Below, piece after piece: positions 5,412-49,743 of a DNA stretch of 64,000 nucleotides. The notes under the pieces are model-generated. The model saw only the letters and a program-made list of their open reading frames with translations, did no database searches and was not told the DNA's origin. Location: the NCBI GenBank assembly GCA_051294375.1, contig CM119265.1, positions 21,168,555-21,232,554 of the forward strand. Reading direction: 5' to 3'. How positions within the stretch are numbered: position 1 is the stretch's first letter; the number at the start of each line of letters is the position of its first letter. Made by a program: the position numbers and the translations under genes. Source of the DNA: Paraspadella gotoi. Its lineage: Eukaryota > Animalia > Chaetognatha.

Positions 5412-5865
5412 ATCATATTTTTTTCGCCATAGTTTATTGTCAAAGAAGAAAGAAGAAAAGAGCGAAAAAGTACATAACCAGTTTTGTAAACTTGAAAAAA
5501 CGATTGTAAGTGATTTTGCATTGGAAACTTATGAAAAAAAATATACAAACAATGAAAATATAAAACTTTAAAAAAGCAATACTAGTATGGGTTAAATTAG
5601 TAGAAATACTTAATATGTCTATTGTCTAAGCTAACAGATGTTTTTCATTGACAACCAAACTGATGTGGGAAGAAATTTTAATTACGGCCCATGACAATAT
5701 GACAAAGTGTATGTTGTTAAGTTAGGATTGTTTATATAAACTCTCTCCACAATTTTCTACTTCTTTGTCTCTCGTTTAATCCTCGATCGCTTAATGACCT
5801 CGGTTGCCGTGGAAACCACTAACCGCAAGTAGAAAGAAGAAGGGCGTTAGGCAAGAATGGAGGCT

Positions 5866-5916
<51 letters not shown>

Positions 5917-6604
5917 CTCTCTCTTTTCCTCTCTCTCTTCCTCTCTCTCTCTCCTAACATTGGTTGGCCTCAGAAAATCCCTACATCATTAACCTTTCTT
6001 CGTCTCTTCCTCCTCTGGAGAAGAAAATACCTTAAGAAAAATGAGAGACAATTTTTATCTCTCTTTGCTTTTCTTCTTTTCATATTTTCTCTCCTTATTT
6101 CCGTTTTTCAATTGTACACGATAATGTATCATCTGAGAGCTAAATTGTACGTAGTAAAATCCTTCATACCGTAAATATAGAAAATATAATCATCCAGATA
6201 GACATGTATTTCCATAATATTTCGCCGACAAGGACGATGAAAACGACGACGACGAAGACGACGACGCCAACAAAGACGACAACACCCACAATAACAACGA
6301 CGACGACGACGACGACGACGATGCAACGCGGAATTTCCATTTCCTTTTTCTTCTCAATATCGGAGATTGTTTTGGACAAACTTTGACTCCCCCTCCCCCA
6401 GTTTCCCTTCCTCCTTTCCCTCCCGGAAAAAAAAAAGACATCATCTTCCATTGAAATGGTGATATCAGCAATTTCCAGCCCAAAAACCCTCCAAAACATG
6501 ACATGGGTGACCCTGGACACTCTGGCGCGAGAGGAGGGGGAAGAGGAGGAGGAGGAAGAAGAGAAAGGAGCTTTCTCTTCCTTGCTCTCTCTTTAGAACC
6601 TCAG

Positions 6605-6688
<84 letters not shown>

Positions 6689-6898
6689 TTCCTTTCTCCT
6701 CCTCCCCGTCTCTTCCTTTTCTTTTTCGATTCTTAGAGTCGTTGCGTCGTCGTCGTCGTCGTCGGCGTTTATGGCTTGGAGGACGAGAGGCTATTCCATG
6801 GATCATTGGCACGGCGTGAGTTAAGGTGCCGACGTCGCCGGAAAAGGGGTTCTGGAAGAGAGTGATGAAAATGGCGAGGTGGCAAGTGGCAACGGATG
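5412..6898. repeat. Near-identical direct duplicate of 9839-11305 (about 1.5 kb)
   Basis: Colinear sequence differing mostly by 1-nt indels; this copy ends at a 25-N gap; a noisier third copy is at about 3370-4327. Probably an assembly or haplotype artefact. Confidence 0.85.
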
Positions 6899-9030: not shown

Positions 9031-10294
9031 TTAGATAAATCTTATTCTTTTTTTCATTAAAAATTAAATAAATGCACTTCTTCCTTTGATACTTTGGCTA
9101 TCTTTTCTTTCATTTAAAATTTTAATAGGCCAAGAGATATTACATTTTTAAAGTTATTTCATTTTTTTTTTCAATACCTGGACCCGTTCATTTTATAAGG
9201 TTTGAAAAAGGGGGTGATTTTCTTAATTTTTTCAATGTATGAGCCTGTAAAACTGGAACGAATAATCAAAATTTTAAAAACAAAAACAGATTTGGAATCA
9301 GCATAATGTCCTCTTTCAACCCATTATTTTTTAAATATTTTAATTAGTTTTTAAGACTATGATATATTTTTATAATTTTCAAAAAATATTTTTGTTATTT
9401 AAAATAATTTTTTTTAAATTTAATTTGTTTTTTATTAAAACTGGTCTTCTTCAAATATCATTTTGTATAAAAATGGAATTAATTACCTTGCACCTTTTAA
9501 GAATACTCTTGAATTTTTTTTTGAGTGAATTAATTTTTAAAAAACAAAAAAAATAAAATTAATTTAAAATTTTATTACTCAATTTATGTAGGCCTCGTCT
9601 CGGAGTTATTTATGAGCAAAAATGATAGGACTAGCTTCATTAATAACCGCGTTAGAGCAAATATTGTAAAAAAAAATTTTGGGTGCTGAGCGCAATTTTT
9701 TTGAATTTTTAAAAATCCTTCAAACGGGCAATAAACCTAAGGTTCCTGCATCTATTACTCAAAACTGAGCTGATTCCAACGCTAGTTTGAGAGATATCCA
9801 CTCCCTCAACTTTTCGAGTAAAGAAAACGCGTGCTGTAATCATATTTTTTTCGCCAAGTTTATTGCAAAGAAGAAAGAAGAAAAAAAAGAAAAAGTACAT
9901 AACCGTTTTGTAAACTGAAAAAACGTATGTAGTGATTTTGAATTGGAAACTTATGAAAAAAAATATACAAACAATGACATATAAAAACTTTAAAAAAGCA
10001 ATACTAGTATGGGTTAAATTAGTAGAAATACTTAATAAGTCTTAATATGTCTATTGTCTAAGCTAACAGATGTTTTTCATGACAACCAAAACTGATGTGG
10101 GAAGAAATTTTAATTACGGCCCATGACAATATGACAAAGTGTATGTTGTTAAGTTAGGATTGTTTATCTAAACTCTCTCACAATTTTCTATTTCTTTGTC
10201 TCTCGTTTAATTCCTCCGATCGCTTAATGACCCGGTGCCGTGGTAACACTAACCGCAAGTAGAAAGAAGACGGGCGGTTAGGCAAGAATGGAGG

Positions 10295-10344
<50 letters not shown>

Positions 10345-11014
10345 GCTCTCTCTCTTTTCCTCTCTCTCTTCCCTCTCTCTCTCTCTCTACATTGGTTGGC
10401 CTCAGAAAATCCCTACATCATTAACCTTCTTCGTCTCTTCCTCTCTGGAGAAAAAATACCTAAGAAAAATGAAGACAATTTATATCTCTCTTGCTTTTCT
10501 TCTTTTCATATTTTCTCTCTTATTTCCGTTTTTCAATTGTACATGATAATGTATCATCTGAGAGCTAAATTGTACGTAGTAAAATCCTTCATACCGTAGA
10601 TATAGAAAATATAATCATCCATATAGACATGTATCCATAATATTTCGCCGGACAAGGACGATGAAAACGACGACGACGAAACGACGACGACCAACAAAGA
10701 CGACAACACCACAATAACAACGACGACGACGACGACGACGATGGCAACGCGGAATTCCATTTCCTTTTTCTCTCAATATCGGAGATTGTTTGACAAACTT
10801 TGACTCCCCCCCCGTTTCCCTTCCTCCTTTCCCTCCCGAAAAAAAAAAAAGACATCATCTCCATTGAAATGGTGATATCAGCAATTTCCAGCCCAAAACC
10901 TCCAAAACATGACATGGGTGACCCTGGACACTCTGGCCGAGAGGAAGGAGGAAGAGGAGGAGGAGGAAGAAGAGAAAAGGACTTTCTCTTCCTGCTCTCT
11001 CTTTAGAACCTCAG

Positions 11015-11098
<84 letters not shown>

Positions 11099-11877
11099 TT
11101 CCTTTCTCCTCCTCCCCGTCTCTTCCTTTTCTTTTTCGATTCTTAGAGTCGTTGCGTCGTCGTCGTCGTCGTCGGCGTTTATGGCTTGGAGGACGAGAGG
11201 CTATTCCATGGATCATTGGCACGGCGTGAGTTAAGTGCCGACGGTCGCCGGAAAGGGTTCGGAAGAGAGTGATGAAAATGGCGACGTGGCAAGTGGCAAC
11301 GGATGATGATGTGATTGTTTACCGAAGAGGAAGTTGGGACTAAGCTGGGGAAACGGCGGAAAAATATGTTTCGTTGTGGAGAAAACAAAAGGTATATTGC
11401 AGGTATATTGCAGTTAAAAATTCACGAATGTTCAAGGAATGAAAGAAAAAATGGTTAAAATGAATATCACATACAAGAAAATAGAAAATTTACAAAAGAA
11501 TCAATAGAAAAAAAATAGAAGAATTAATACTAATTTAAAATGCATTACAATGCAAAAGAATAACTACTAAAGTATTTTGGTTTAAAAGACAAATAATACA
11601 TGTAACTTGATGTCTATTAAAAGTGTTCACGTCTGCCGATAAATGTGAATACTGAATAGTAATGATGAGCTCATGTCGAGTTTCTGAACGCTTGTTTTTA
11701 TTGCTTCGCCAAGCGAGAACTTTAAAAAAGGCTTTCCCCCCTTCCGTTAGTTCTTTCCTCAGCCACGCCACTTTCTCAAGGAAGCGTCATTTTCACCGCC
11801 GCAGTTATTCCGACAAGAGACGACGACAAAGATGGCGTTTACGTCGTTCGAGCCTCTTTAGGGCTGAAAAGAGAGGT

Positions 11878-12498: not shown

Positions 12499-12534
<36 letters not shown>

Positions 12535-13063
12535 GAGGGAGAAACAGAAAGATGCTGAGGCAATTCGCTTTTTTATCCTTTCTCGTTATTTTTAGTCTTT
12601 CTCTCTTTAGTTTTTGATTTTCCTGTTTTATTCTAGTATTGTTTCTCTTAATTGTAACCGGGATTTCGGAAAAATTTTTCCGGGGAAAGGTCTTTTTTTT
12701 TTCTTTGCTTTTGCGTCATTCGTCCTATTTACATATATTTCGTTTTAATTCTGAGCTTCTCAACTGCGTAATAATAGGATAAGAGAAGTACTTTTCTTAA
12801 ACCCTCTCAACCAGAAAAAAATTATGATTGTAACGAAACCTAAAAGTAAAAATTAAAATTAAATTGTTTTTTATTCCTTATTCGGGGCATTGCTCACTTG
12901 AGGCCAAATCTAAAAATTAATTCCGGCAAACAATGAAAAATTCAGTTATTTAGTTCAATTCGAAATTATCCTTTTCGTTATTTAATAAATAGACGCATCC
13001 ACTCTCTCCCCGCTTTTTCGATCGATCGCGCGACCGGAATCAAAGAGGCATTATTAGTTTCTC

Positions 13064-13106
13064 ATTTGCATAAACGTAAAAAAAAAACGCCTAAATTTGG
13101 TATAAA
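13064..13106 (+). promoter_or_regulatory. Candidate core promoter: octamer ATTTGCAT (13064-13071) and TATA box TATAAA (13101-13106)
   Basis: Motif matches about 120-155 bp upstream of the ATG at 13221; short motifs in AT-rich DNA, so only suggestive. Confidence 0.35.
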
Positions 13107-13220
13107 GGCGATTTTGTTTTTTCTTTTAACTGGAGAAGACAGAAAGAGGAAATCCGACGACCCAAGCGAATTCATTTTCGTGAATTCGAAAAAAGAAAAA
13201 CAAATTTGGAAACTAAAAAA

Positions 13221-13309
13221 ATGAACTTCAGTCGAATTTGGTTTCGTTTGTTGCTGGCGACGTTCGCCGCCGTCGTGACCCTGTCTTCGCTGGTGTCCGC
13301 TACCACGCT
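13221..13309 (+). CDS. Exon 1 (signal peptide) of a secreted mini collagen-like peptide precursor: MNFSRIWFRLLLATFAAVVTLSSLVSATT(L)
   Basis: ATG at 13221 in AAAAATG context; basic n-region, hydrophobic core and V-S-A cleavage-like motif; consensus donor CT|GTAAGT at 13309/13310 (phase 2), compatible with all three downstream acceptors. Confidence 0.85.
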
Positions 13310-13665
13310 GTAAGTATAGGCGTCTTAATGTAGTAATGTTCTTGTTTACTGAGTTGCCTTTTCCTGCCGATGGAAAAAAAAATAAGCGGAGATTTAAAAA
13401 AACTTTTGCACTTGAGACGTTGAAAGGTGTATGCAACTTGCACATGCACAGCAAGTGTGAAAAACATTGTCCATGCAACAGCATGTTTTTTTATCTTTAA
13501 GAGTTGTTATCTTCTTTTTTTCTACTTTAAAAAATGTAATTTTGGTGTTCTATTTTCCTTAAAAAATTAGCTCTTAACAATAAAACAGTTGTTATTTTAA
13601 AATATTTATTCATATTTTTTTACACCAATATTCATACATACACCTACATTTATTTTATTATTCAG

Positions 13666-13874
13666 TCGTGAAAAACGGCAATGGGGTCAGCCAATGCCGA
13701 TGCCCATGCCCATGCCGATGCCGATGCCCATAATTAGATGCCGCCCCGGTGGCATCGGGCCCCCGGCCCTCCCGGACCCCCGGGGCCGCAGGGGCTCAAG
13801 GATCCGCGGGTCCGGATGGGCGAAGCGGCCTTGAGGGACAAAGAGGAACACAAGGACAGCGTGGAAGACGATGA
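13666..13874 (+). CDS. Terminal exon A of the collagen-like peptide precursor (two 1-nt deletions as assembled); corrected reading [69 protein letters not shown]
   Basis: Acceptor TTATTATTCAG|T gives phase 2 with exon 1; colinear with exons B and C; Gly-X-Y frame is restored by adding one base in the C/G run near 13760-13766 and one in the G run near 13791-13794; TGA at 13872-13874. Confidence 0.7.
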
Positions 13875-14130
13875 TGCATCGCACGCATTTGCACGCGAGT
13901 TTGCACATCAGCTCATCAGGACATTTGCATGCATATGCTTCGAACCATTGTTTTAATTATATATACGGGTGAAAACGCTACAGAAAATGATTGTTTTATT
14001 TTCGCTAGTCACGTTGTTACTTTGATTTTGGAATTTTTCATGCTCTGATAAAAGTACTCAACGCATATGTATACTTCATAACTTTCAATTAATTTCAATG
14101 ATTTTTTTTTTCTCCAAAAAACTGTCTAAA

Positions 14131-14305
14131 AGGCTTCATTTAATGTTAAAAAAAGCAAATATCAATTATGGAAGGATTTATTCTTTAATTGCTTCATTTA
14201 ATGTTAAAAAAAGCAAATATCATTATGGAAGGATTTATTCTTTACATTGGCTCATTTAATGTAAAAAAAGCAAATTAAATTATGGAAGGTTTTATTCTTT
14301 ACATT
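14131..14305. repeat. Three tandem copies of an approximately 58-bp unit (GCTTCATTTAATGTTAAAAAAAGCAAATATCAATTATGGAAGGATTTATTCTTTA...) between exons A and B
   Basis: Direct repeats read from the sequence. Confidence 0.85.
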
Positions 14306-14460
14306 TGACTCTTAAGTACATATTCTTAACGTCCCTTTTAATTTTATTTCACCTTTTCAAATCTTTGTTTAACAATTAGTATAACTAATAAAAAAAAAAC
14401 TTAAATTAACTAGAATTCTCAGTTTCTCACCCTTCGTTCTACTCCCTTGTCCATTTCCAG

Positions 14461-14644
14461 TCGAGAGAAGCGGCAGTGGAACATGCCCATGATGCCCATC
14501 ATTAGATGCCGGCCCGGGGGCGAGGGGCCCCCTGGCCCCCCTGGCCCCCCTGGACCCCAAGGACCGCAAGGACCCCCTGGGCCTGACGGGCGAAGGGGGT
14601 TGGAGGGAGCCAGAGGAATCCAAGGACCCAGAGGGAGAAAATGA
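14461..14644 (+). CDS. Terminal exon B (intact): [60 protein letters not shown]; 90-aa precursor when joined to exon 1
   Basis: Polypyrimidine acceptor CCCTTGTCCATTTCCAG|T; 89+184=273 nt open frame with exon 1; 14 perfect Gly-X-Y triplets; GC-rich island in AT-rich flanks. Confidence 0.85.
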
Positions 14645-15157
14645 AGGAAGAAGTGATCATTTTAACTTTAAATGAAGCCTTTTTTTTAAACAATTATATA
14701 ATATGTATGTCTAATTCGCTTTTTATGACCACCCTTGAATTATTATCAGGAATGATTGTTTTATGATTCTTCTTCAAAGTCACGACTTTTGTTATCCAAG
14801 CCTTTTTTTATGTTTGATACTTTTGATGTGTTCGTTACAAGATTGCAACATTGAAACATTTCTTAAGATACAGATTATCAAATCTGTAACTTTCGTCACA
14901 ATTGAAAATGTAAATAGAATGATTTTTTTTTGGTACATCATTTGCTAAGCTCGTGCTGAATATCAAGTAATACATAAAATATCACAAAATAACTCAAACG
15001 TTTAAAATTGGTACGGTCAAAAAATAGAGGTTGTATAAAAATAACCCTGTTCAAAAAAATTAAATTTCAGTTTCGGTAATATTAAAAAATACTAAACCCT
15101 GGTGCTCCAATATTAATTTTTCAAATTAATTTTTTTTTAATCTCGTGATTTTTCCAG

Positions 15158-15338
15158 TCGCGAGAAGCGTCAGTGGAACCCGCCGATGAACACCATAAGG
15201 TGTCGCCCTGGTGGGCAGGGACGACCCGGCCCGCCGGGCCCCCCTGGCCCTCAGGGCCCCCAAGGCCCCCCCGGCCCGGACGGTCGGCGGGGGCTCGATG
15301 GTCCGCGAGGAATCCAGGGGCCCACGGGAAGAAGATGA
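15158..15338 (+). CDS. Terminal exon C (intact): [59 protein letters not shown]; 89-aa precursor when joined to exon 1
   Basis: Acceptor GATTTTTCCAG|T, phase 2; 89+181=270 nt open frame; 14 Gly-X-Y triplets; many synonymous differences from exon B (e.g. CGA GAG AAG CGG vs CGC GAG AAG CGT); AATAAA downstream at about 15657. Confidence 0.85.
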
Positions 15339-15975
15339 TGGGAGAAGGAGAAGGAGGAGGAGGAAGAGGAGGAGGAGGAGGCGGCTTTCTTTAATTTATT
15401 TTTTCCGTAGATTCTCAATTCAATGGTGAACCCGAAATGATTGTTTGTATTTTCATAAAAATCTCACGATGACATGATTTGATATTCTAACATTGTTTTC
15501 TTACATTAATAATATGTTCTTAAAAAAAGTCATTCGATTATCGTTCGACCGGATGCGATTTGTTGTTATTATTATTATCTAATAAGCATCCTTTGTGTAT
15601 TGATCATTATCTACGAACGCTGTACTATTTACTTATCTAAACAGAATGATTTTTGAAATAAAAATATCGAAAAGGATTGTTTGATTTTATTATTAGTTTA
15701 GTGAGAGAGAGAAAGAGAGAGAAAGAGAAAGAGAGAGAGAGAGAGATAACTTAAAAAGTACAATTCTGAAATTCTAAATATTAACATACTAAGCTACCAT
15801 TGTTACTCTTAAAAACCAAGGCAACAGCATTGACAATGAGTTTTCCGAGCTATTTTTTACTGTGCAGCGAATAAGTCACGAGTTATTTTCGTTCCATCCT
15901 CAAACCATTCCTCCCCTTTTTTTTACCTCCTTTTCATCCTCCTCCTCCTCCTCCTCCTCCTCATCCTCCCTCTAC

Positions 15976-16141
15976 TCAATTCTCGGTCGAATGTTTTGCC
16001 ATTTTGTTTGACTGAGGAACAAAACTCTCGATTGATCTTTTGTCCATCCTCTTCCGTATCGCTCTTCCTCCCTCCATAGAGATTGAGTGGTTTTCCTCTT
16101 CTTCCTCCAGAGTGGACTCGATGATGGCAAAATAGTCACGA
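15976..16141 (-). CDS. Candidate terminal exon of an unidentified minus-strand gene: RDYFAIIESTLEEEEENHSISMEGGRAIRKRMDKRSIESFVPQSNKMAKHSTEN*
   Basis: Non-repetitive open frame after acceptor-like TGTCCTCCAAG; minus-strand AATAAA near 15686-15691; possible upstream minus-strand donors (GTGAGC about 17610, GTAAGT about 17722 and about 19249). No recognisable domain. Confidence 0.3.
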
Positions 16142-16311
16142 CTTGGAGGACACAATGGGATCGTGATTGAGTTCGGGACAAAAATAGAAAGAGAGAGAGA
16201 GACAAAAAAGAGAGAGAGAGGAAAGAGAAAGGACAAAAAAAAACTAGAATAGGAATTTCAAATAATGAAAAAAGGGAAAGAGAGGGGAAAATTAAAGACG
16301 AAATATTCAAA

Positions 16312-16387
<76 letters not shown>

Positions 16388-17399
16388 ATCTCTCTCCCTG
16401 TCTATAATAAATTCCTTGATTGCTCCTTTCTTTCAGCCGCGGAGCACCATCTGTGGGTTATTTTTTCGTTGGGTGACGACAAAAAATAGGGATAACGAAA
16501 AAAAAAGGAGAGCGATATAATCCAATAAATATTACATATTGCGAGGCTTTAGTTTATATATTTGTTTTTGAGTCTTCCGCGAATCCTTGGTGAGAATTTT
16601 GTAATAAATCAGTTAGTAAATAATGACCGTTTTTAAGCTTTTGCGTATATTTTCCTATCTTTAATCCAAATATTGTTGTCTGAATCATCACTAATCAGAT
16701 CTGTCCNNNNNNNNNNNNNNNNNNNNNNNNNNNNNNNNNNNNNNNNNNNNNNNNNNNNNNNNNNNNNNNNNNNNNNNNNNNNNNNNNNNNNNNNNNNNNN
16801 NNNNNNNNNNNNNNNNNNNNNNNNNNNNNNNNNNNNNNNNNNNNNNNNNNNNNNNNNNNNNNNNNNNNNNNNNNNNNNNNNNNNNNNNNNNNNNNNNNNN
16901 NNNNNNNNNNNNNNNNNNNNNNNNNNNNNNNNNNNNNNNNNNNNNNNNNNNNNNNNNNNNNNTCGAGCTCAACGCCAAATACATCTTCAATGTAAAATAG
17001 TCTGACAACAAAAGTTTAAAAGGCAGAAGAAAAGGTGAACCCAACTCAGACATGATAGGGCCCTTCGCTGCCTGTCCAAGAAGGTAGCGACGATGAGAGA
17101 GAGAGAAGAGGAGAGAGAGAAGAGGAGAGAGGAGGAGAGAAGAGAGAGAGAGAGAAAAGAGAGAGAGAGAGATAGGGTCTGGCGGTCATCTCCCGGTTAC
17201 ATTCTGCCTTAACGCTGCAATTAGCGTTCTTTGTGTTGATCGAGCCAGAATTCTCACATAGGCATCGAGTTTTCTCCCAAGAAAATGCACATGAAAATGG
17301 CCAATCGGAGCACGGAGTCATCGACGAGAGAATGAAATCTTGGCGATCTCACGACAGAAGATGCAACAGTTGAGGAGAATAGAGGTGTGGTCAGTGGCC

Positions 17400-24325: not shown

Positions 24326-26019
24326 TCTCTCTTATCTCTCGCTTTACTCCCCTCTTTTCCCAGTTTCATGTTCAATCACCGCACGTGTAATACAAGCGGA
24401 TAAAGCGGAAGTAAATATTTGAATTTTTAAAATCCTCCTCCTCTGCGCCTCCTCCTCTTCTCCTCTGTCGCACTCTTCCTCTACCTCGTCTTCTCTCGCG
24501 AAGCTTCGTGATCCCCTGCATCTTCCATAACAAGGATCTGGGAGGAAGAGAGGGTTGAGGAGAGAGGAAGAGAGGCAGAAAGGGAGAATAACGAGAGAGA
24601 AGAGGTAGGAGCGAGGGAGAAGTAAGAGGAAAAGATTTATAAGAGAAGAAATAGAGGAGAGAGAGAAGATCTGGAGGGAGGAGGAAGAAGTAAGAACGAG
24701 AGAAGAGGCAGGACGGAAGAAATAAGAGGAAAAGAGGGAGAAAAAAATGAGAAAGGTAAATAAAGGCGAGAGGGACGGAAAAATGATAGGAGATAAGAAT
24801 AAGGGCGAGAGCTCAGGGAGATTATAAAGAATGCATTAGGACAGAGGAGGAGAAAAGATGAAGAGCAGGAGAGCCTGAAAAAAAAGAAAATAATTTAAAA
24901 ATCATCTCTCTCTGTTTCCCTCTCTTTTTCCCCAGTGTTCATTTGTTCAAATTCACCGCCACGTGGTAATGACAAGCGGATAAAGGCGGAAGTAGAGTGA
25001 CAAACAAAAGAGCAACCGGTTGAATTTTAAAAATCCTCCTCCTCTTCCTCCTCTTCCTCCTCTCTCGCAATCTCTTCCTCTTCCTCGTCTTCTCTCGCGA
25101 AGCTTCGTGATCCCCGCATCTGTCGCGATGAACAAGGATCTGGGAGGAAGAGAGGGAGGAAGGGGAGAGGGAGGAGAGAGGAGGAGAGGGAGGAAAGGGG
25201 AGAAGGAACGAGAGAGAAGAGGGGTAGGAGGGAGGGAGAAGTAAGAGGGAAAAGAGGGAGAAGAAATAAGAGAAGGAAATAAGAGGGAGAGGGAGGAAAA
25301 AAATGATAGGGAGGAAAGAGAATAAGGGGGAGGAGCTCAGGGAGGATATAAAGGAGATGGAATGTAGGGAGAGAGAGGAGGAGAAAAGATGAAGAGAGGA
25401 GAGCCTGAAAAAAAAAGAAAGATATCTTAAAAATCTTTCTACTTCTGCTGTTTTCAATCTCATTTTTTTTTTTAAACTTTTTGTTTTTTTTTNNNNNNNN
25501 NNNNNNNNNNNNNNNNNNNNNNNNNNNNNNNNNNNNNNNNNNNNNNNNNNNNNNNNNNNNNNNNNNNNNNNNNNNNNNNNNNNNNNNNNNNNNNNNTTTT
25601 TTTTTTTCCTTAAACTTACCCTCCTCCCAATTTTTCTTCTTCCCAGTTTTTCTCTCACTCTCCTTAACTTCTCTCCCACCTCGAATACCCCACCTCCCCC
25701 TCCATCTCCCAAGCCCCCCCCTCCCAAGCGCCGCGAGGAGGGAAGAACTTGTCAGTAGAAAATCAGCGAAGAAGAATAGAAAGTCCTGGTAATGAATGCA
25801 GTTAAGGAGAAAAGCTGTTCCCTTCCCCGTGCAGCGACAGCGGAAACGGGGTTCCGTTGGCGCGACCGCCGCCGCCGCCGCCGCAGGCCTCCTCGCTGCA
25901 GCTTTCGCGTCGCGCGCTGCTGCTTCCCTGAGGCGGCGGACGTCGGCGGAGCGGCGGCGGCGGCGTCAAGATGAGGGCGAATCCAGCAAACAAGCCAATT
26001 CACTCGAATGGCGTTGGAG

Positions 26020-26129
<110 letters not shown>

Positions 26130-26300
26130 ATGAGAGCCCGGGAAAAAAACCAAATTAGAGACGGACCAGGCGGAGATGTAAGGGTGCGAACAAAAGACAA
26201 TCAGCTAACATATAATATTATATATTATATATATATAATATTATATATTCGCACTGACTTCCCGCAGATGCACAACAATGACGCCTTTTTTGCGGCGAAA

Positions 26301-26372
26301 GCGATGAATGCGATGAAAGATATGAATGCGATGAATGATATGAATGCGATGAATGATATGAATGCGATGAAT
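26301..26372. repeat. 18-bp tandem repeat GCGATGAATGATATGAAT
   Basis: Direct reading; source of the spurious MNAMND ORF. Confidence 0.8.
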
Positions 26373-26468
26373 ACGACCATCGAATCGCGGTATGAATAAA
26401 AAATTGAGAAGCTTTATCCGTTTCCATCTTCTATCGGTTTTCGTTTCGATCGAGACGATTCACTAGGA

Positions 26469-26759: not shown

Positions 26760-29700
26760 ACTTGACATTTCCTCCCCCTCTTCCTCTCTCTTCTCCTCTC
26801 TCTANNNNNNNNNNNNNNNNNNNNNNNNNAATCCCCTTCTTTCCTCTCTTTCTTAATTCTCTCTTCACATTTCCTCACCTCTTCCTCTCTCTCCTCCTCT
26901 CTCCTAAATTCCCCTCTTCTCCTCCCTCTCTCTTCTTTCTCTCTTCACATTTCCTCCCTCTTCTTCCTCTCTCTCCTCCTCTCCTTCTAAATTCCCCTCT
27001 TCTCCTCCCTCTCTCTCTTTCTCTCTTCACATTTCCTCCCCCTCTGCGCTCTCGTCTTCTCCTCTCTCTACTAAATTCCCCTCTCTTTCCTCTCTTTCTT
27101 TCCTTCTCTCTTCAACATTTTCCTTCACCCTCTATCCTCTCTCTCCTCCTCTCTGCTAAAATTCCCCTCTTCTCCTCCCTCTCTTCTCTTGTTCTCTCTT
27201 TCACATTTCTCTCCCCTTCTTCCTCTCTCTGTCTCCTCTCTCTACACATTTCCCTCTCTTATCCTCTCTTCTTTCAATTCCTGCTTCACATTTCCTCACC
27301 CTCTTCCTCTCTCTCTGCCTCGAGCTCCTCTAAAATTCCCTTCTTCTTCCTCCCTCTCTCTCTGTTCTTCCTTCACATTTCCTCCCTCTCTTCCTCTTCT
27401 CTCTCCTCCTCTCTCTAAATTTCCCACTCTTCTCCTCCCTCTCCTCTTTCTCTCTATCAACATTTCCTCCCCCTCTTCCTCTCTTCTCCCCCTCTCCTAA
27501 ATTCCCCTCTTCCTACCTCCCTCTCTCTTCTTTCTCCTCTTCACATTTCCTCCCTCTCTTCCCCTCTCCTACGTCCGTTCCTCTCTTCTAAATTCCCCCT
27601 CGCTTCTCCTCCCTCTCTCTCTTTCTCTCTCACCATTTCTCCCTCTCTTCCTACTCGCTCCTCCTCTTCTGCTTAAAATTCCCCTCTTCTCCTTCCCTCT
27701 CTCTCTTTCTCCTTCACATTTCCCTCCCCCTCTTCCTCTCTCTCCCTCCTCTCTCTAAATTCCCCTCTTGTCCTCCCTCTGCGCTCTTCTCTCTTCACCA
27801 TTCCTTCCTCCCCCCTCTTCCTCTCTACTTCTCCTTCTCTCTAAATTTCCCCTCCTCTTTCCTCCTTCTCTTTCCTTCTCTCTTCACGATGTATTCCCAC
27901 GCCTCTACATTTCGCTCTCTCTCCTGCCACTCTCTCCATAAGATCCCATTCTTCTCCTCCCTTCTCTCTCTTTCTCTACTTTCACAATTTCTCCCCTCTG
28001 TTCCTCCTCATCTCGTCCTCTCTCTAAATTCCCCTCTCTTCCTCTCTTTTTAATTTCCTTCTCTCCTTCACCATTTCCTCACCCTCTTCCTCTCTCTCCT
28101 CGTGCCCTCTCCTTCTAACAAAATTCACCCTCTTCTCCTCCCCTCTCTCATCTTTACTCTTCTTCACCATTCCTCCCCCTCTTCTCTCTCTTCTCCTCTC
28201 ACTAAATTCCCCTCTCTTGCCTCTCTTTCTTTTCCTTCTCTCTTCACATTGCCCTCACCCTCTTCCTCTCTCTCCTCCCTCTCTCCTAAATTCCCTTCTT
28301 CTCCTCCCGTCTCTCTCTTTCTCTCTTCACATTTCCTCCTTCTCTTCCTCTCTCGTCCTCCTCTCTCTAAATTCCCCTCTTCTCCTCCTTCTCTCTCTTT
28401 CCTTTCACAATTTCCTCCCTCTCTTCCTCTCTCTCTCCTCTTCTAACATTCCCCTCTTCTCCTCGCCTCTCTCTCTTTCTCTCTTCACATTTCTCCCTCT
28501 CTTCCCTCTCTCCTTCGTCTCTCTCAAATCCGCCTCTCTCTCTCGTCCCTCTCTCTCTTCTCTCTCTTTCCACATTTCCTCCCTCTCTCCTTCTCTCCTT
28601 TCCTCTCTCTAAATTCCCCCTTCTCCTCCTCATCTTCTCTTTCTCTCTTTCACATTTCCTTCCCCCTCTCCTCTCTCTCCTCCTCCTCTCTCAAATTCCC
28701 CCTCTTCTCCCTCCCTCTCTCTCTTTCTCTCTTACACATTCCTTCCCCCTCTTCCTCTCTGCTTCTCCCTCTCTAAAATCCCCTCTCTTCCTTCTCTTTC
28801 TTTCGCTTCTCTCTCACATTTCCTCACCCTCTTTCCTCTCTCTCCTCGCCTCCTCTCTAAAGTTCCCCTACTTCCTCCTCCCTCTCCTCTTCTTTCTCTC
28901 TTCACATTTCCTCCCCCTCTTCCTTCTCTCCTTCTTCCTCTCTCTACAAATTCCCCTCTTTCCTCTCTTCTTTCCTCTCTCTTCACCATTTCCTCACCTC
29001 TTCCTCTCTCTCCTCCTCTTCTCCTAAATTCCCTTCTCTCCTCCCTCTCTCTCTTTCTCTCTCACATTTCCTCCTTCTCCTCCTCTCTTCTCCTCTCTCC
29101 TCTAAATTTCCCCTCTTCTCCTCCCTCTCTCTCCTCTCTTTACCATTGTCCTTCACCCTTTCCTCCTCTCCTGGTCCTCTCTCTAAATTCCCCTCTTCTC
29201 CTCCCTCTCTCTCTTTTCTCTCTTTCACATTTCCTTCCCTCTCTTCCTCTCTCGTCCTCCTCTCTCTAAATTCCAACCTCGTCTCCTCCTCTCTCTCTTT
29301 CTCTCTTCACATTTCCTCCCCCTCTTCCTCTCTCTCTTCCCTTCTTCCTAAATTCCCCTCTTCTCCTCCCTCTCTCTCTTTTCTCTCTTCACATTTCCTC
29401 CCCCTCTTCCTCTCTCTTTCTCCTTCTCTTCTAAATTCCCCTCTCTTCCTCCTTTCTTCCTTCTCTCTTCACATTTCCCACCCTTTCCTCTCTCTCCTCC
29501 TCTCTCTAAAATTTCCCCTCTTCTCTCCCTCTCTTCTCTTTCTCTCTTCACATTTCCTCCCCCTCTTCCTCTCTCTTCTCCTCTCCCTCTAAATTCCCTC
29601 TCTTCCTTCTCTCTCCTGTCTCTCTTCACATTTCCTCACCCTCTTCCTCTCTCTCCTCCTCTCTCTAAATTCCCTTTCTTCTCTCCCTCTCTCCTTCTCT

Positions 29701-31300
29701 CTTCACATTTCCTCCCTCTCTTCCTCTCTCTCCTCCTCTCTCTTGAAATTTCCCCTCTTCTCCCTCACCTACATACTACTATACTCTCTCTCACATTTCC
29801 TCCCTCTCTCCTCTCTTCCTCCTCCTCCTCTAAATTCCCCTCTTTCTCCTGCCCTCTCTCTCTTTCTCTCTTCACATTTCCTCCCTCTCTTCCCTCTCTC
29901 TCCTCCTCTCTCATAAATCCCCTCTTCTCCTCCCCTCTCTTCGCTTTCTCTCTTCACATTTCCTCCCTTTCCTCTTCCTCTGCTCTCCTACCTCTCTTCT
30001 AAACTTTTTTTTTCCCCTCACTTCCTCCCTCTCTCTCTTTCCTCTGCTTCACATTTCCCTCCCCCTCTTCCTCTCTCTTCCTCCCCTCTCACTCTAATTC
30101 CCCTTCTTCTCCTCCCCTCTCTCTCTGTTCTCTCTTCACATTTCCTCCTCCCTTCCTCTCTCTTCCTCCTCTCTCTAAAATCCTCCTCTTCCTCTCTTGT
30201 CTTTCCTTCTCTCTTCACATTTCCTCACCCTCGTTCCTCGTCTCTCCTCCTCTCTCTACAAATTCCCCTGCTTCTCCTCCCTCTCCTCTCTTTCTCTCTT
30301 TCACCATTTCCTCCCCCTCTCTCCTCTTCTTCTCCTCTCTTAAATTCCCCTCTCTTCCTTGTCTCTTTCTTTCCTTCTCTCTTCACATTTCCTCACCCTC
30401 TTCCTCTCTCTTCCTCCTCCTCTAAATTCCCTTCTTCTCTCCCCTCTTCTTTCTTCTTTCTCTCTTCACATTACACTGCCCTTTCTCTTCCCTCGTCTCT
30501 CCTCCTCTCTCTAAAATTCCTCTTCTCCTCCCTCTCTCTCTCTCCTCTTCACATTTCCTCCTTCCCCCTCTTCCTCTCTCCTTCTCCTCTCTCTAAATTC
30601 CCCTACTCATTCCTCTCTCTCTTTCTTTCCTTCTCTCTTCACATTTCCTCACCCTCTTCCTCTCTCTCCTCCATCTCTCTAAATTGCCCCTCTTCTCCTC
30701 CCTCTCCTCTCTTCTCTCTTCACATTTCCTCCCCTGATGGATGAAGACTATCCAATCGAAGCACATTTGGCCATGGCCTCGCACTCCACACCGCCAGTTA
30801 CCCCGCACCTCCAGCGCATCAAACACCCTAAATGCCGACGCGCCCTGGCGTCATAGAGCGATCAGCCCCAGTCGCGCCTTTGCCCAGCCGTGCAACCCCG
30901 ACAGACCCGACGCACCGTTCCTCTCTCGTCTCCTCTCATCTAAATTCCTCGCTCCTCTCGTCCTTTTCCTTCTCTCTTCATCATTTCCTCACCCTCTTCC
31001 TCTTCTCTCCTCCCTCTTCAAATTCCACTTCTTCTCCTCCCCTCTCTCTCTTCTCTCTATCACATCCTCCTGTTCTCTTCGCTCTCTGCTCCTCCTCTCT
31101 TCTAAATTCACCTCTCTCTCCTCCCTCTCTCTCCTTTACTCTCTTCACACTTTCCTCCTTCTCTTCCTCTCTCTCCCCTCTCTCTTGAAATTCCCCTCTA
31201 TCTCCATCCCTCTCTCTCCTTTGCTCTCTTCGCACATTTTACCTCTCCCTCTTCCTCTCCTTCCCCCTCTCTCTAAATTCCCCTCCCCCCTTCCTTCTTT
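26760..31300. repeat. About 4.5-kb polypyrimidine minisatellite, unit about 80 bp, with landmarks CACATTTCCTC and CTAAATTCCCC
   Basis: CACATTTCC recurs at about 80-bp spacing (about 26866, 26946, 27027 and onward); interrupted by a non-repeat patch at about 30735-30915. Confidence 0.9.
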
Positions 31301-31314
31301 CTCCTCCAACTCTT

Positions 31315-34300
31315 TGTCGAATAATGTCCTTCCTCCGTTTTCTGCCTCCCACCGATTCGCCGCGATATTTCTTAGCAGACCCACGAGTATTCATTCCACA
31401 TAAATACGGCCAGGAATCCCTTATACCTGCCTATTCATGCGCCTCCGTTCGCTCAAAAACACCCAGTTTTTTCTCCCTCTCTCCTCTACAACTACTCTTC
31501 TCTCTCGTCTCTCCATCCACTCTTCCTCTCTCTTCTCGCTCTCCACTCATGCTCTCTATCTCTCTCTCTCTGCTCTCTCTTCCCTCTCTTCTCCTCTCTC
31601 TGCTCTCTCTTCTCTCTCTTCTCCTCTCTCATCGCTCTCTCTTTGTCTCTCTCTCGATTTCGCTTTTTCAGCTGATCGAGTATCCCTGTAATCATCTTAT
31701 CATTACTTTTTCTTCTTCATTCACCTGACTTGTTGTGGTTAGTTTGCACAATACAATTCCAAACTCACCCATTGATAACAATGACCTAATTATCACAGTT
31801 CAAAAACAACGGGCCTATTTTCTAAAGAATCAGGAGATGCCTTTTTGATTACATTGAAAAAATAACGTTAAGAAAAAACTCCGTCGCAGTGCCACCATAG
31901 CAGACCCCGTTTCTGGCATCCTTTTAAAAAAAGAAAAATAGAAGAAGAAAAATTCACATGCAAAGAGAGAGGAGGATGAGGTTAAGGAGGTTTGAGGAGT
32001 GCACAACGCCAGGGGAGGCAAATTAAGGAGTTGAAAGCAGCGGCATCGAGGATGAGGAGTTGAAAGGCGGACATACACACACCACACTGGGGAGGGCGAG
32101 GAATGAGGAGAGCTTGAAAGAAGGGCGTAGGATGAGCCTCGAGGCGACGAGGAGTTGAAATAGCCTAGTCGGGAGGATTGAGGATGTTGAAAGAGGATGA
32201 GGATGAGGAGTTGACAAGAGGGAGGATGAGCGGAGGACGTGAGCAGAGTTTGAAATAGGGAGGATGAGGAGTTGATAAAAGAGGGTAGGTATTAGGAGTG
32301 AAAGAGGGAAGGATGAGGAGTTAAATAGGGAGAACGAGGGAGTTGAAAGTAGGTTAGGCTGAGAGAGACGAGAAGTTGAAATAGGGGAGGGAATAGGAGG
32401 AGTGAAAAGAGGGAGGATGAGGAGTTTGACAAGTATGGGAGGTATGAGCGTCAAGAGACGAGAATTGACCAAATCAGCGGGAGATGAGGAGTTGAAAGTA
32501 GGGGCGGCCGAATGCGATGAGAGTGTGAGAAAGAGGGGGAAGGAGAGGAGTTGGACAAGTCGGGAAATGCATGAGATTAGAGGAGTTTTTAAAACTATGA
32601 GTTGTTCACAGGGTACTTCAATGGACCATAAATTCTACAAAAACAAAAGCAAAAAAAGAAATACAAAGAATATCGGCCCGCATTCTTATTGCCACTCATT
32701 AATCCCACTTACATTCTTCGTTAGAATAAGCAATAGTAATTTTTAAAAAACTGCTCAGTGGCGTAAAAAGACAGTAGGGGAAAGAAAGCCACCGTATACT
32801 AAGGAAATGCTAACCCATGTCCACATTAACTGGTGTTTGTTTACAACAAATCTCCTCCTTAGTTCGCACATAGAAAGAATAGAATTAGGCCCTCTCATAT
32901 CTTTTCTTTCTGTTTTCACCCACATGATCCTCTCCTCTCTCTCGTCTCTCTCTCCTATCTCTCTCTCTTCTCTCTAACTCTCTCTCTCTTTTGCTCTCAT
33001 CCTCTCTTTGCTTCCCCGACGTTCAACTTTTTTTATATTTTGTGAAAAAGATATTTTCTGCCGTAATTTTTATGGAGGGAAAGGGCATAAGGCTGCGCGA
33101 AGCCGTTCAATTAATAAAGGAATAAAATTTGGCACAAAGCGACTGATAAACGAATTAGTATCAGACTGCGCCGGCCTTACGCGAATCAGGCTTATCTATT
33201 TCGTCGATTCTGAGAGACGCCAACGTAATGTCTTTTTTGAGGGTCAGATCACGCTTGCAGAATCACAATACTAGGTGTCGGGGAGAGGAGAGAGAGAGAG
33301 AGAGATAGAAGAGAGAGAGATGGCAGATGACTGACCCTGAACCTGAGAGAAGACCGGACGAGAGAGAGCGAGAGAGAGAGATCATCCTGATAGGAGATGA
33401 AATGAGAGAGAAATATCGAGGCTAGGCCGCGAAGACTGCAGCACACGTAGTGAGACCACAAAAAAAAAAGAAAAGAAACAGAAAAGAAGAGAAAATACGA
33501 GAAAGAAACACAGAAATAGAGGAAAAGAGAGAGGACCATAGAAACAAAAAAAAATCTTAAAAATATATTTCTTCTGCGGAAATATATATATAATTCATAA
33601 ATTGGGTTTTTCCACAATCGCTCGGGCGGTGAGAGTCTAACCGTCTGTTGCGAGAACGAGCCTCATGTTAAATGTATTACTTTAATTAGATTTCTCCTAA
33701 AAAAATTTTTTCTTCAATAATTTTTTTCTCTTTTAGAAAACCAAATTGACTTTGCGTTTTTTACCTTATCCAAGGTTTTTCTTTCTTTTCTATTTTCTTT
33801 TGCTTATTTTTTTATTTTTGGACGGAACAGAAAAAATCATTTTGTCATCGATAGAAAAAAAAAAAAACACAACCCCCATCACCCGATTTTTTATTCAAAT
33901 ATTTTTTTTCGCTTAAAATTCAAAAAATTATAAAAGAAACAAAAAATTCAAGCTCAAAAAAAAAAAAAAAAAGAAGAATAAAATTAAAATAAAAATACCG
34001 TACATAAAACAAAAACAAAAAAAAAAAAAGATCATGAGGAAAATTGTCCACATCCTATCACTCTTAAACTGATATTCGGACTCCGAGAAACGGAAAAGAA
34101 AAGAGAAATGCTCCGGTTCCATCGATCCTAGAGCACAAATTTGCGAATTTTTTTTTTTGAGGACAGTGAGTATTGTTTTTCTTTGCCCTCAATTTTCTTT
34201 TTTCTATTTTTTGAACGCTTTTTCCTTTTTCTCGCGTAGGGAATTTTCTTTCTCCGCGTCGGATTTTATTATTTTGATATTATCGCTGGAAAAAAGGACG

Positions 34301-44108: not shown

Positions 44109-45271
44109 GGATCTGAAAGCGTTTTCCCTTCCCGGTGAATTATCCCCCTTTTGATGTGAAGCCATTTTCTGGAAACGAGATCCCATAAGGATTTTGCCTC
44201 AGATATGACAATGATGACAAGGGGGATTGCAGACGGATTTACCGCCTTTCAAACCCGCGACGACGACGACGACGACGACGGCGATAATGACGGGGGTCGA
44301 CGGTGACGAGGACCGCGATGACGATGATCGTTACCCCGTGTGCGTTCGCGAGTGACGCCAAAAAAAATCTTTACTATGTTTTAAATATTTAATAAACATA
44401 ATTCATAAGTACATCATTAGTCGGAGAACTACTTGACGTTTTTTATGAATAAGTTTCATTTCGTGTTTAATTTATTTACTATTCTTTGTTTAAATTTTCA
44501 TCTAACACAGTAAAATTGGCAAAAAAAGACCATTTTAGGCGTTTTCTTGATTGAATTAAAAAATATTTATATCATAAGAAAACCCTATTAATGGTCTAAT
44601 CAATGGCGTATCTGAATTATCTTAATGTTGAGTAATTTTTGACTAATGATTTTTTTATTTTTTTTAATTATAAAACTTGAGTTTTCTTTATACAATTCGT
44701 CCAATTAGAAAAAAATGCTGTCCTGAGCATGTTCTTGACAGTTTCTGAATTCTGAATTTAATGATGTAAACGAATTTTAATAATTCCAAGTATTTAATGA
44801 GTAACTAATTTAAAAAGATTTTCTTTTTTAAAAATATTCAGTTTTTTAATGAAGATGAAATTGGATGACCATTAAAGAAAAGTTCTTTTTACATATCAAA
44901 TTAATCTTATGAAATTAAAATAAAATAAACGTCCAGTACTTTGCTACAGAATGAGGAAAAAAAATGTAAAAATATTTATCCAATGAGAAATGGTACGCAT
45001 TTTTTTGGTGTCACTCGCGAACGGACACGGGGTATAACGGCGAATACGACGTCGGAAATCGTGATGATTGCGGCAACGTTGATGATGACGATTATTATGA
45101 AAACTGTGATAACAGTTATTACATTGACAGCAAAGATAGAAATGATAGGATGATAGTAGAGCTGATGACGACGATGATTATATGATGGTGACGATGATAG
45201 GGATGAAAACGACGATGATACTTGATTTCAAGGGGATCAAAGAGGGGGAAGAATGTATAGATTTGTTGGTT

Positions 45272-49534: not shown

Positions 49535-49743
49535 CTTTCCTTGTCACTGAAGCGATTTTAAAAAAAATACACTGGAAAAAAAAATAGAAAAAGAAAATTA
49601 AAAAAGGAGATCGATAGAAAGGTGAAGTAACCCGGTTATTTAAAATCTTTTTCCCCCTGAAATAGGCTTTTGTCATCTTTGCTCGGTGTTGGATCCTTAA
49701 ACCTAATGTCATTTCTGACCATAATCCAATATCCATACCCTAC

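What the first reader, a model, noticed from the sequence alone, without database searches (positions are those of the whole stretch)
13221..15338. One signal-peptide exon feeding a cassette of three alternative terminal exons, each a mini collagen-like peptide
Seen in sequence: a single leader exon ends in a phase-2 GTAAGT donor. Three paralogous GC-rich exons (13666, 14461, 15158) each begin CAG|T-CGN-GAR-AAR-CGN-CAR-TGG (L-R-E-K-R-Q-W) in that same phase and each ends in its own stop codon. I found no second signal-peptide exon in the AT-rich spacers and no convincing donor at the ends of the exons, so they do not chain into one long collagen. Exons B and C differ largely at synonymous sites, suggesting purifying selection. 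Inference: one promoter and leader makes three different secreted collagen-like peptides by mutually exclusive last-exon choice, possibly to supply chains for homo- or heterotrimers. I do not recognise this as a described family.
Basis: partly seen in the sequence, partly recalled or inferred. Interest (0 to 1): 0.88.

Follow-up and report, generated by a model that had tools for sequence, protein, structure and literature searches.

The report
One leader, switchable tiny collagen tails
In what is likely a marine animal, one short leader exon is spliced to at least two of three duplicated end-exons, each predicted to give a different, very small secreted collagen-like peptide from a family we could not find described, although this gene layout is known from other secreted proteins.

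Summary
The gene is real. Exon 1 (13221-13309, signal-peptide-like, phase-2 donor) is joined through GT..AG introns to both B (14461) and C (15158) in contigs of one run. B and C each encode REKR-QW, one Cys and 14 Gly-X-Y triplets, then stop, under strong purifying selection. Two corrections. (1) Exon A as assembled has two one-base shortfalls, and no junction to it was seen. It keeps the paralogous frame and stop, and the assembly is indel-noisy elsewhere, so it may be intact. (2) The B contig runs through the whole spacer up to and into C, so B and C look like competing 3' acceptors sharing one 3' end, not separately polyadenylated exons. New candidate controls: a 23/24-nt inverted repeat brackets B (0 of 500 shuffles), and the window's two densest GCAC/TGCA clusters flank A. 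Only three homologues were found, all unnamed. It is not a minicollagen or nematogalectin. The layout has precedents: Hydra nematogalectin A/B, locust neuroparsin, Drosophila PGRP-LC. Trimer formation is untested. Verdict: new variant of a known kind, interest 0.5.

The parts
13101..13106 (+). TATAAA, candidate TATA box of the shared promoter
   Evidence: Sequence; function inferred
13221..13309 (+). Exon 1 coding part: signal-peptide-like leader (29 aa + 2 nt), phase-2 GTAAGT donor at 13310
   Evidence: hydropathy peak 2.4; X1 contig 13215-13309 with no mismatch; homologous leaders in P0005/P0006
13401..13490 (+). Intronic GCAC/TGCA cluster upstream of A (5 TGCA, 3 GCAC, 1 GCATG); candidate splicing-regulator sites
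   Evidence: 8 sites in 90 nt, tied for densest in the 64-kb window (next best 5); function inferred
13666..13874 (+). Exon A: paralogue with a (PM)n-extended N-terminus; two one-base shortfalls (about 13763 and 13795) as assembled; stop 13834 as assembled, homologous stop 13874
   Evidence: A-B pS 0.60 vs pN 0.12; no junction seen in X1
13875..13945 (+). Second GCAC/TGCA cluster right after A's homologous stop (5 TGCA, 3 GCAC, 1 TGCATG)
14128..14151 (+). Upstream arm of a 24-nt inverted repeat bracketing B; overlaps the first copy of a 3 x 58-nt tandem repeat (14133-14304)
   Evidence: -25.4 kcal/mol; score 21; 0 of 500 shuffles, shuffle max 16
14461..14644 (+). Exon B coding part: REKR, Gln-Trp start, one Cys, 14 Gly-X-Y triplets ending G-R-K, stop
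   Evidence: junction 13309>14461 in X1
14645..15157 (+). B-C spacer: 3' UTR of the B isoform and part of the intron of the C isoform
   Evidence: One X1 contig covers 14461-15187 with 1 mismatch and carries the exon-1 joint
14660..14683 (+). Downstream arm of the inverted repeat, 16 nt after B's stop
15158..15338 (+). Exon C coding part: REKR, Gln-Trp start, one Cys, 14 Gly-X-Y triplets ending G-R-R, stop
   Evidence: junction 13309>15158 in X1
15339..15662 (+). 3' UTR likely shared by B and C isoforms, with AATAAA at 15657
   Evidence: X1 contig 15393-15647 (15336-15392 skipped by the tool as a repeat); PAS list
13986..13996 (+). AATGATTGTTT motif, repeated at 14751 and 15436, about 100 nt after each of the three stops and nowhere else in the window
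   Evidence: 3 matches on +, 0 on -; role unknown

Best explanation
One leader exon is spliced to either of at least two tandemly duplicated end-exons (B or C), which likely act as competing 3' splice acceptors on one shared 3' end and are predicted to yield two ~55-residue secreted collagen-like peptides; a third copy (A) is likely a regulated or assembly-damaged option. Shown: the junctions to B and C, the coding content, purifying selection, and a B contig running through the spacer into C. Inferred: signal-peptide secretion, convertase cleavage after REKR, pyroglutamate from the new N-terminal Gln, and removal or amidation of the G-R-[K/R] end (general prohormone processing, recalled). Also inferred: assembly of the 14 triplets into short triple helices cross-linked through the single Cys, as a small structural secretory material. 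Acceptor choice is inferred to be set by a 24-bp RNA helix that loops out B (favouring C) and by GCAC/UGCAUG clusters, the motifs bound by RBPMS/MEC-8 and Rbfox, that gate the nearest acceptor A.
For: Junctions 13309>14461 and 13309>15158, both GT..AG, in X1 contigs that match exon 1, B, spacer, C and UTR with 1 substitution and no indel. Contig geometry fits a splice branch: all acceptors begin TCG, which explains the 98-nt exon-1 contig and the 27-nt side; 727+27=754. Only short off-target pieces lie on 13310-14460, and there is no cover at 12500-13063 or 15743-16700, so the run behaves as RNA here. B contig spans 14461-15187, and no AATAAA lies between B's stop and C. Contig depths are consistent but weak evidence: 44 vs 21.1+22.2 for exon 1, and 51.2 for C vs 22.2 for its junction. 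B-C pS 0.74 vs pN 0.08. Homologues P0005 and P0006 have a related leader joined directly to L-REKRQW. Inverted repeat around B: 0 of 500 shuffles among 6 segment pairs tested, predicted pairing near 1.0 in a fold of 14050-14760. The GCAC/TGCA clusters flanking A are the two densest in the window; the RBPMS family prefers paired GCAC (PMC5311487 abstract) and acts position-dependently (PMC6613909 passages).
Against: All RNA evidence is from contigs of one run in one study, typed as RNA only by guess. The joint side is 27 nt (under the tool's 30 caution) and only 30 nt of the B contig lie in C (under the 31-nt bridging rule); a contig is not a single molecule. Inverted repeats of equal or higher score occur elsewhere in the window (44344-45022, score 29; cluster near 40.6 kb), so the B helix could be a transposon relic. 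No relative's genomic DNA was available to test conservation or covariation of any cis element. B and C are 49/57 identical, so a functional difference between them is not shown. There is no recognisable trimerisation domain. P0005 continues from a 42/43 B-identical start into a longer collagen.
Confidence: 0.65

Rival explanations
1. One reading: three intact, separately polyadenylated terminal exons, chosen one at a time, supplying chains for homo- or heterotrimers.
For: A keeps the paralogous frame, 14 triplets and the homologous stop when read with X at two breaks, with pS 0.60 vs pN 0.12 against B. Both breaks sit in C or G runs. Duplicated blocks elsewhere in the window differ by 25 gap events vs 7 substitutions in 626 columns, a long-read error signature. 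An AATAAA lies between A and B (14387), and each unit keeps the AATGATTGTTT motif.
Against: The B contig continues through the spacer into C, and no AATAAA follows B before C. About 1250 nt of the same N-free stretch match RNA contigs with no indel, which argues against local assembly noise.
Confidence: 0.2
2. A is a recently dead pseudo-exon, and the gene is a two-way switch (B or C).
For: Two frameshifts as assembled; neighbouring B/C sequence is error-free against RNA; A has somewhat more amino-acid change than B vs C (pN 0.12-0.14 vs 0.08).
Against: A still shows a strong synonymous excess (Fisher p about 2e-9 vs B), has no in-frame stop in the paralogous frame, and is flanked by two striking motif clusters. 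Homologues P0003 and P0006 begin QWG like A. This rival is compatible with the best explanation for B and C.
Confidence: 0.35
3. The products are not structural collagens but precursors of small amidated or cationic bioactive peptides (neuropeptide-like or antimicrobial), with the collagen-like repeat incidental.
For: REKR then Gln, an internal G-R-R in B, C and P0003, and a terminal G-R-[K/R] in all three copies resemble prohormone processing sites (sequence; processing rules recalled). Mature B and C are basic (pI 11.6 and 12.0). Locust neuroparsin uses the same gene layout.
Against: An uninterrupted 14-triplet Gly register is kept in all copies, with a Pro-rich first half and Pfam Collagen above cutoff; the internal G-R-R is G-R-S in A.
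Confidence: 0.2
4. The locus is the truncated N-terminal module of a longer collagen gene family, and longer isoforms exist.
For: P0005 (174 aa) has a leader, 42/43 identity to B, then further Gly-X-Y and a Cys-containing tail.
Against: P0003 ends exactly like B. In this window B and C end in stops, X1 contigs continue into UTR, and a six-frame scan found no other Pro-rich Gly-X-Y run in 64 kb. P0005 diverges inside a repeated GPPG unit, where assembly chimeras are expected (inference).
Confidence: 0.12
5. The junctions are assembly artefacts or come from other loci.
For: Joint side 27 nt; a single run.
Against: Both joints fall exactly on the predicted GT..AG sites and the contigs are 99+% identical to the window.
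Confidence: 0.03

Closest known systems
Hydra/Clytia nematogalectin A/B (PMC4195985 sections 7-8 and supplement 4 part 1; PMC4619090 passages; the primary paper PMC2972925 was not held)
   Same: Intron right after the signal peptide; A and B exons lie in one gene and are alternatively spliced; Hydra A and B share their N-terminal leader in the alignment; both carry a Gly-X-Y domain.
   Different: No gal-lectin domain or collagen/lectin intron here; no similarity to the conserved nematogalectin N-terminus; 14 triplets vs a longer run; KRQW, REKR and RCRP have 0 occurrences in the 4 supplementary files (gapped alignments could hide a motif).
Cnidarian minicollagens (PMC4195985 passages and supplement 3 part 1)
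   Same: Signal peptide, propeptide ending in KR, short Gly-X-Y domain, Pro-rich flank, basic tail.
   Different: No N- or C-terminal cysteine-rich domain (one Cys in total), no second proline repeat; that paper found no alternative splicing of minicollagens in Kudoa or Polypodium.
Locusta neuroparsin/neoneuroparsin gene (PMC4237046 section 17)
   Same: Several mRNAs share the first coding exons and add one specific last exon, giving different secreted peptides with biased usage.
   Different: Unrelated Cys-rich hormones; the shared exons encode part of the mature peptide, whereas here only the leader is shared.
Drosophila 3' variable regions PGRP-LC, CG42235, Pip (PMC6191721 abstract and discussion)
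   Same: Common 5' splice site, tandem duplicated 3' cassettes, RNA pairing implicated in choice.
   Different: No docking-site/selector pairing found here (intron 1 vs post-B and post-C not above shuffles); the candidate helix brackets B as an exon loop-out (concept as in PMC8052449 passages).
Nematode cuticular collagens (PMC7852208 passages)
   Same: RxxR furin-type site before the collagen region; small secreted collagens in families.
   Different: They have 37-43 triplets, an N-Pro-helix and cysteine knots; here 14 triplets and one Cys.

Membership tests
Collagen-like (Gly-X-Y) proteins | Uninterrupted Gly-X-Y run, Pfam PF01391 above gathering score | tested here: met
   B and C: 14 triplets, 30.9 and 31.4 bits; A only with X at two breaks
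Collagen-like (Gly-X-Y) proteins | Forms a triple helix (homo- or heterotrimer) | not testable with these tools
Minicollagen | Signal peptide and propeptide ending in a dibasic site | tested here: met
   Hydropathy only, no dedicated predictor; REKR in all copies and 3 homologues
Minicollagen | N- and C-terminal cysteine-rich domains | tested here: not met
   One Cys per peptide; definition from PMC4195985
Minicollagen | Nematocyte expression in a cnidarian | not testable with these tools
   Phylum of the window not determined
Nematogalectin | C-terminal gal-lectin domain after the collagen | tested here: not met
   Stops follow triplet 14; X1 contigs run into UTR; only PF01391 found
Nematogalectin | Conserved N-terminal segment before the collagen | tested here: not met
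   Motif search and visual comparison with supplements of PMC4195985 (part 1 of 3 of file 4 read)
Nematogalectin (works like) | Signal-peptide exon alternatively spliced to duplicated collagen-bearing cassettes | tested here: met
Nematode cuticular collagen | 37-43 triplets flanked by cysteine knots | tested here: not met
3' variable region with competing docking/selector pairings (PGRP-LC type) | One docking site in the first intron complementary to selectors before each cassette | tested here: not met
   Intron 1 vs post-A, post-B and post-C: 413, 388 and 411 of 500 shuffles reach the observed score; intron 1 vs post-A energy marginal, 4 of 100
Exon loop-out by long-range RNA pairing | Conserved or covarying helix that changes exon use when broken | tested here: inconclusive
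   Helix significant in one sequence; no orthologous DNA or mutational test available
Mutually exclusive terminal exons with own poly(A) sites | Each exon ends at its own cleavage site | tested here: inconclusive
   B contig extends into C and no AATAAA lies between them, which points against; contigs cannot show RNA ends

The most novel reading that the evidence does not exclude
An undescribed family of among the smallest secreted collagens (14 triplets, one Cys, no trimerisation domain) is made from a three-way acceptor switch with two separate controls: protein-gated exon A (GCAC/UGCAUG clusters) and structure-gated exon B (a loop-out helix tuned by a tandemly repeated arm). The switch would set the chain ratio for heterotrimers or cell-type-specific homotrimers from a single 2.5-kb gene.
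Probability: 0.2. Interest if true: 0.75.

Novelty: new variant of a known kind. Interest (0 to 1): 0.5.

Why it matters
It is a compact (2.5 kb), RNA-supported case in which the entire mature product of a secreted protein is swapped by acceptor choice, with specific, mutable candidate control elements: a ready minigene for testing how distal 3' acceptors are chosen outside model organisms. The peptides would be natural, minimal collagen-like chains, useful for asking how a short triple helix nucleates without a trimerisation domain. It parallels, apparently independently, the nematogalectin layout in cnidarians. The splicing logic itself is not new.

Tried and rejected
No whole genome was held, so paralogues outside the window could not be searched. 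The run search listed no holder on record as RNA; 1 of 3 runs held the stretch. No 13309>13666 junction and no true cover of exon A in X1 at likeness 85 or 80; contigs show presence only, so this is not evidence that A is silent. The pieces laid on 13690-13731 in all 3 runs are other transcripts matching the GATGCC repeat, with loose ends on both sides, and were rejected as A expression. X2 and X3 gave nothing else. Metagenome contigs: 13 of 599 pattern-matching stretches were confirmed, all collagen-only; 0 of 13 contain KRQW, IRCRP or RCRPGG. Profile search at 14-97 aa: 0 of 21 candidates. ESM Atlas: only generic collagen clusters with low shared-feature counts. PDB profile search: 1 chance-level hit, E 0.76. 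Docking-site model rejected. The shuffle control used a coarser window step than the observed value and so favoured significance; it was redone, where the A-bracketing duplex fell to 4 of 100 by energy and 413 of 500 by match score, so I treat it as a by-product of palindromic TGCA motifs. The inverted repeat around C (14913-14938/15514-15539) was not above shuffles (61 of 500). Nematogalectin, minicollagen and cuticle-collagen membership rejected (see membership tests). A literature search on one guessed phylum (listing only) gave no lead; the phylum remains undetermined. Paper search for REKRQW, IRCRPGG and LREKRQ: 0 papers; searches (listings only) showed no description of this family; subscription journals are not covered. 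Three look-ups of earlier findings returned nothing.

Full report
Observation. The sequence and a script confirm an ATG at 13221, an 89-nt coding exon ending at a phase-2 GTAAGT donor, and three CAG|TCG acceptors at 13666 (A), 14461 (B) and 15158 (C). Joined in silico, each gives a leader followed by L|REKRQW. B (stop 14644) and C (stop 15338) encode a short Met/Pro-rich segment, IRCRP, and exactly 14 Gly-X-Y triplets ending G-R-K or G-R-R; both pass the Pfam Collagen cutoff. A as assembled leaves the register at about 13763 and stops at 13834. The DNA alignment shows two one-base gaps in A; read with X at these, A is a 14-triplet paralogue ending at the homologous stop 13874. A six-frame scan found no other Pro-rich Gly-X-Y run in the window.

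Selection. Nei-Gojobori counts: B-C 57 codons, pS 0.74, pN 0.08 (dN/dS about 0.03, dS near saturation); A-B 54 codons, pS 0.60, pN 0.12 (about 0.11); A-C pS 0.86, pN 0.14. The copies are old duplicates kept under purifying selection, and A was too, at least until recently.

RNA evidence. Of 3 runs listed, X1 holds the stretch (typed RNA by guess, contigs only). Its contigs join 13309>14461 and 13309>15158 with GT..AG ends, at likeness 85 and 80. They match exon 1, B, the spacer, C and the UTR with one substitution and no indel, while flanks and intron 1 have only short off-target pieces, so the run behaves as spliced RNA here. The 27-nt side is below the tool's caution level but follows from the shared TCG after every acceptor. 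The B contig (754 nt) carries the exon-1 joint and spans 14461-15187, the whole spacer plus 30 nt of C, and the C contig begins exactly at 15158. The only AATAAA after B's stop is at 15657. The simplest reading is that B mRNA keeps C in its 3' UTR, so B and C are competing acceptors on one last region. This is likely, not proven: a contig is not one molecule, and contig depths (44; 21.1 and 22.2; 51.2) are weak support. No junction to A was seen, which contigs cannot turn into absence.

Is A broken? Both shortfalls lie in C or G runs, and duplicated blocks at 5960-6580 and 10390-11000 differ by 25 gap events and 7 substitutions in 626 columns, typical of uncorrected long reads. Against this, about 1250 nt next to A match RNA without an indel. 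I put it at roughly 60:40 for artefact; only DNA reads can decide.

Candidate controls. A 24-nt inverted repeat (23 complementary) brackets B: 14128-14151 and 14660-14683, the upstream arm overlapping a 3 x 58-nt tandem repeat whose second copy also pairs. Its score of 21 was reached by 0 of 500 dinucleotide shuffles (max 16), the only one of 6 segment pairs to stand out, and it forms with probability near 1 in a fold of 14050-14760. However, equal or stronger inverted repeats occur at two other places in the window, one resembling a small transposon, so a relic origin is possible. A is flanked by two GCAC/TGCA clusters (13401-13490 and 13875-13945), 8 sites each in 90 nt, the two densest in 64 kb (next 5). 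Paired GCAC is the preferred site of RBPMS/MEC-8/couch potato (PMC5311487, abstract), and RBPMS represses or activates exons by position (PMC6613909, passages). That UGCAUG is the Rbfox element is recalled. An 11-mer, AATGATTGTTT, occurs about 100 nt after each stop and nowhere else in the window. No PGRP-LC-type docking site was found. All regulatory roles are inferred.

Relatives. A word-seeded search with B gave 2 hits among 1213 candidates, one true (P0003, 71%) and one collagen-only. The N-terminal profile gave 0 of 21 at 14-97 aa, 3 of 1244 among longer proteins (P0003, P0005, P0006) and 2 among 1.84 billion representatives. All three are unnamed singletons from source 'merc', which I recall as a marine eukaryote metatranscriptome catalogue; that is the basis for 'likely marine'. 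P0005 and P0006 have a homologous leader joined to L-REKRQW. P0003 appears to be a frameshifted version of the P0006-type leader with a different peptide start and a B-identical end (my reading by eye). P0005 is 42/43 identical to B and then continues as a longer collagen, either a chimera or a real longer form; this counts against 'always short'. Metagenome loci were collagen-only (0 of 13 with the motif). The phylum was not determined.

How it most likely works. One promoter (TATAAA at 13101) and leader; the donor at 13310 chooses among three acceptors. In the sampled RNA B and C are both used. Translation gives about 90-aa precursors, predicted to be secreted and cut after REKR to basic peptides of 56 and 55 residues (5.8 and 5.6 kDa) with an N-terminal Gln and a G-R-[K/R] end, suggesting pyroglutamate and amidation (recalled rules). 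The strict Gly register and single Cys suggest short disulfide-linked triple helices, an odd Cys count per trimer allowing links between trimers (inference). The main rival for function is a precursor of small bioactive peptides.

Comparison with what is known. The closest layout is Hydra nematogalectin: an intron after the signal peptide and alternatively spliced A/B collagen-lectin cassettes in one gene (PMC4195985 sections 7 and 8; PMC4619090 passages; alignment; the primary paper was not held). It is not a member: no lectin domain, a different N-terminus, and no motif match in the supplements. It is not a minicollagen (no cysteine-rich domains) or a nematode cuticle collagen. Shared 5' exons with alternative last exons are also known for locust neuroparsin and Drosophila PGRP-LC, CG42235 and Pip, and exon loop-outs are a described mechanism (PMC8052449, passages). 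The peptide motifs gave 0 papers, and (listings only) showed no description of the family; subscription journals and bioRxiv supplements were not searchable.

Verdict. A real, RNA-supported gene, with two products shown and a third uncertain. The peptide family looks undescribed and the locus carries testable cis elements, but the splicing layout has clear precedents. New variant of a known kind; interest 0.5.

Noticed in passing
window 48640-49535 and 51530-52842 (- strand): Two tandem, intron-containing CAP-domain (PF00188) genes with signal-peptide-like starts.
   Followed up: partly
window 44334-45033: About 700-nt AT-rich element with long terminal inverted repeats, resembling a MITE; further inverted repeats cluster at 40.6-41.4 kb.
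   Followed up: no
window 5845-6750 and 10285-11144: Duplicated block whose copies differ mainly by indels (25 gap events, 7 substitutions in 626 columns), suggesting noisy long-read sequence or a haplotype duplication.
   Followed up: partly
window 26800-31600: Long, degenerate CT-rich tandem array with a unit of about 83 nt.
   Followed up: no
window 13875-13970: The frame after A's homologous stop reads on for 32 codons with four Cys; no Pfam hit. Probably a by-product of the TGCA cluster, but stop read-through is not excluded.
   Followed up: partly
window 14097, 14918, 15645: A second motif, AATGATTTT, lies further downstream in each of the three units; the C UTR contig ends at 15647 beside it.
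   Followed up: no
window 13690-13731 (off-target pieces in X1-X3): Other transcripts with GATGCC repeats (Asp/Ala-rich in one frame) occur in all three runs, two at high contig depth in X1 (478 and 327).
   Followed up: no
P0003, P0005, P0006: All three begin MGRA upstream of the leader's Met, possibly a library adaptor or a common 5' end; P0003 and P0006 share a leader region but differ in the peptide start, which could be alternative exons in a relative.
   Followed up: no
window 25932-26399 (+): Open frame ending in a short Met-Asn-Ala/Asp tandem repeat; no significant Pfam hit.
   Followed up: no
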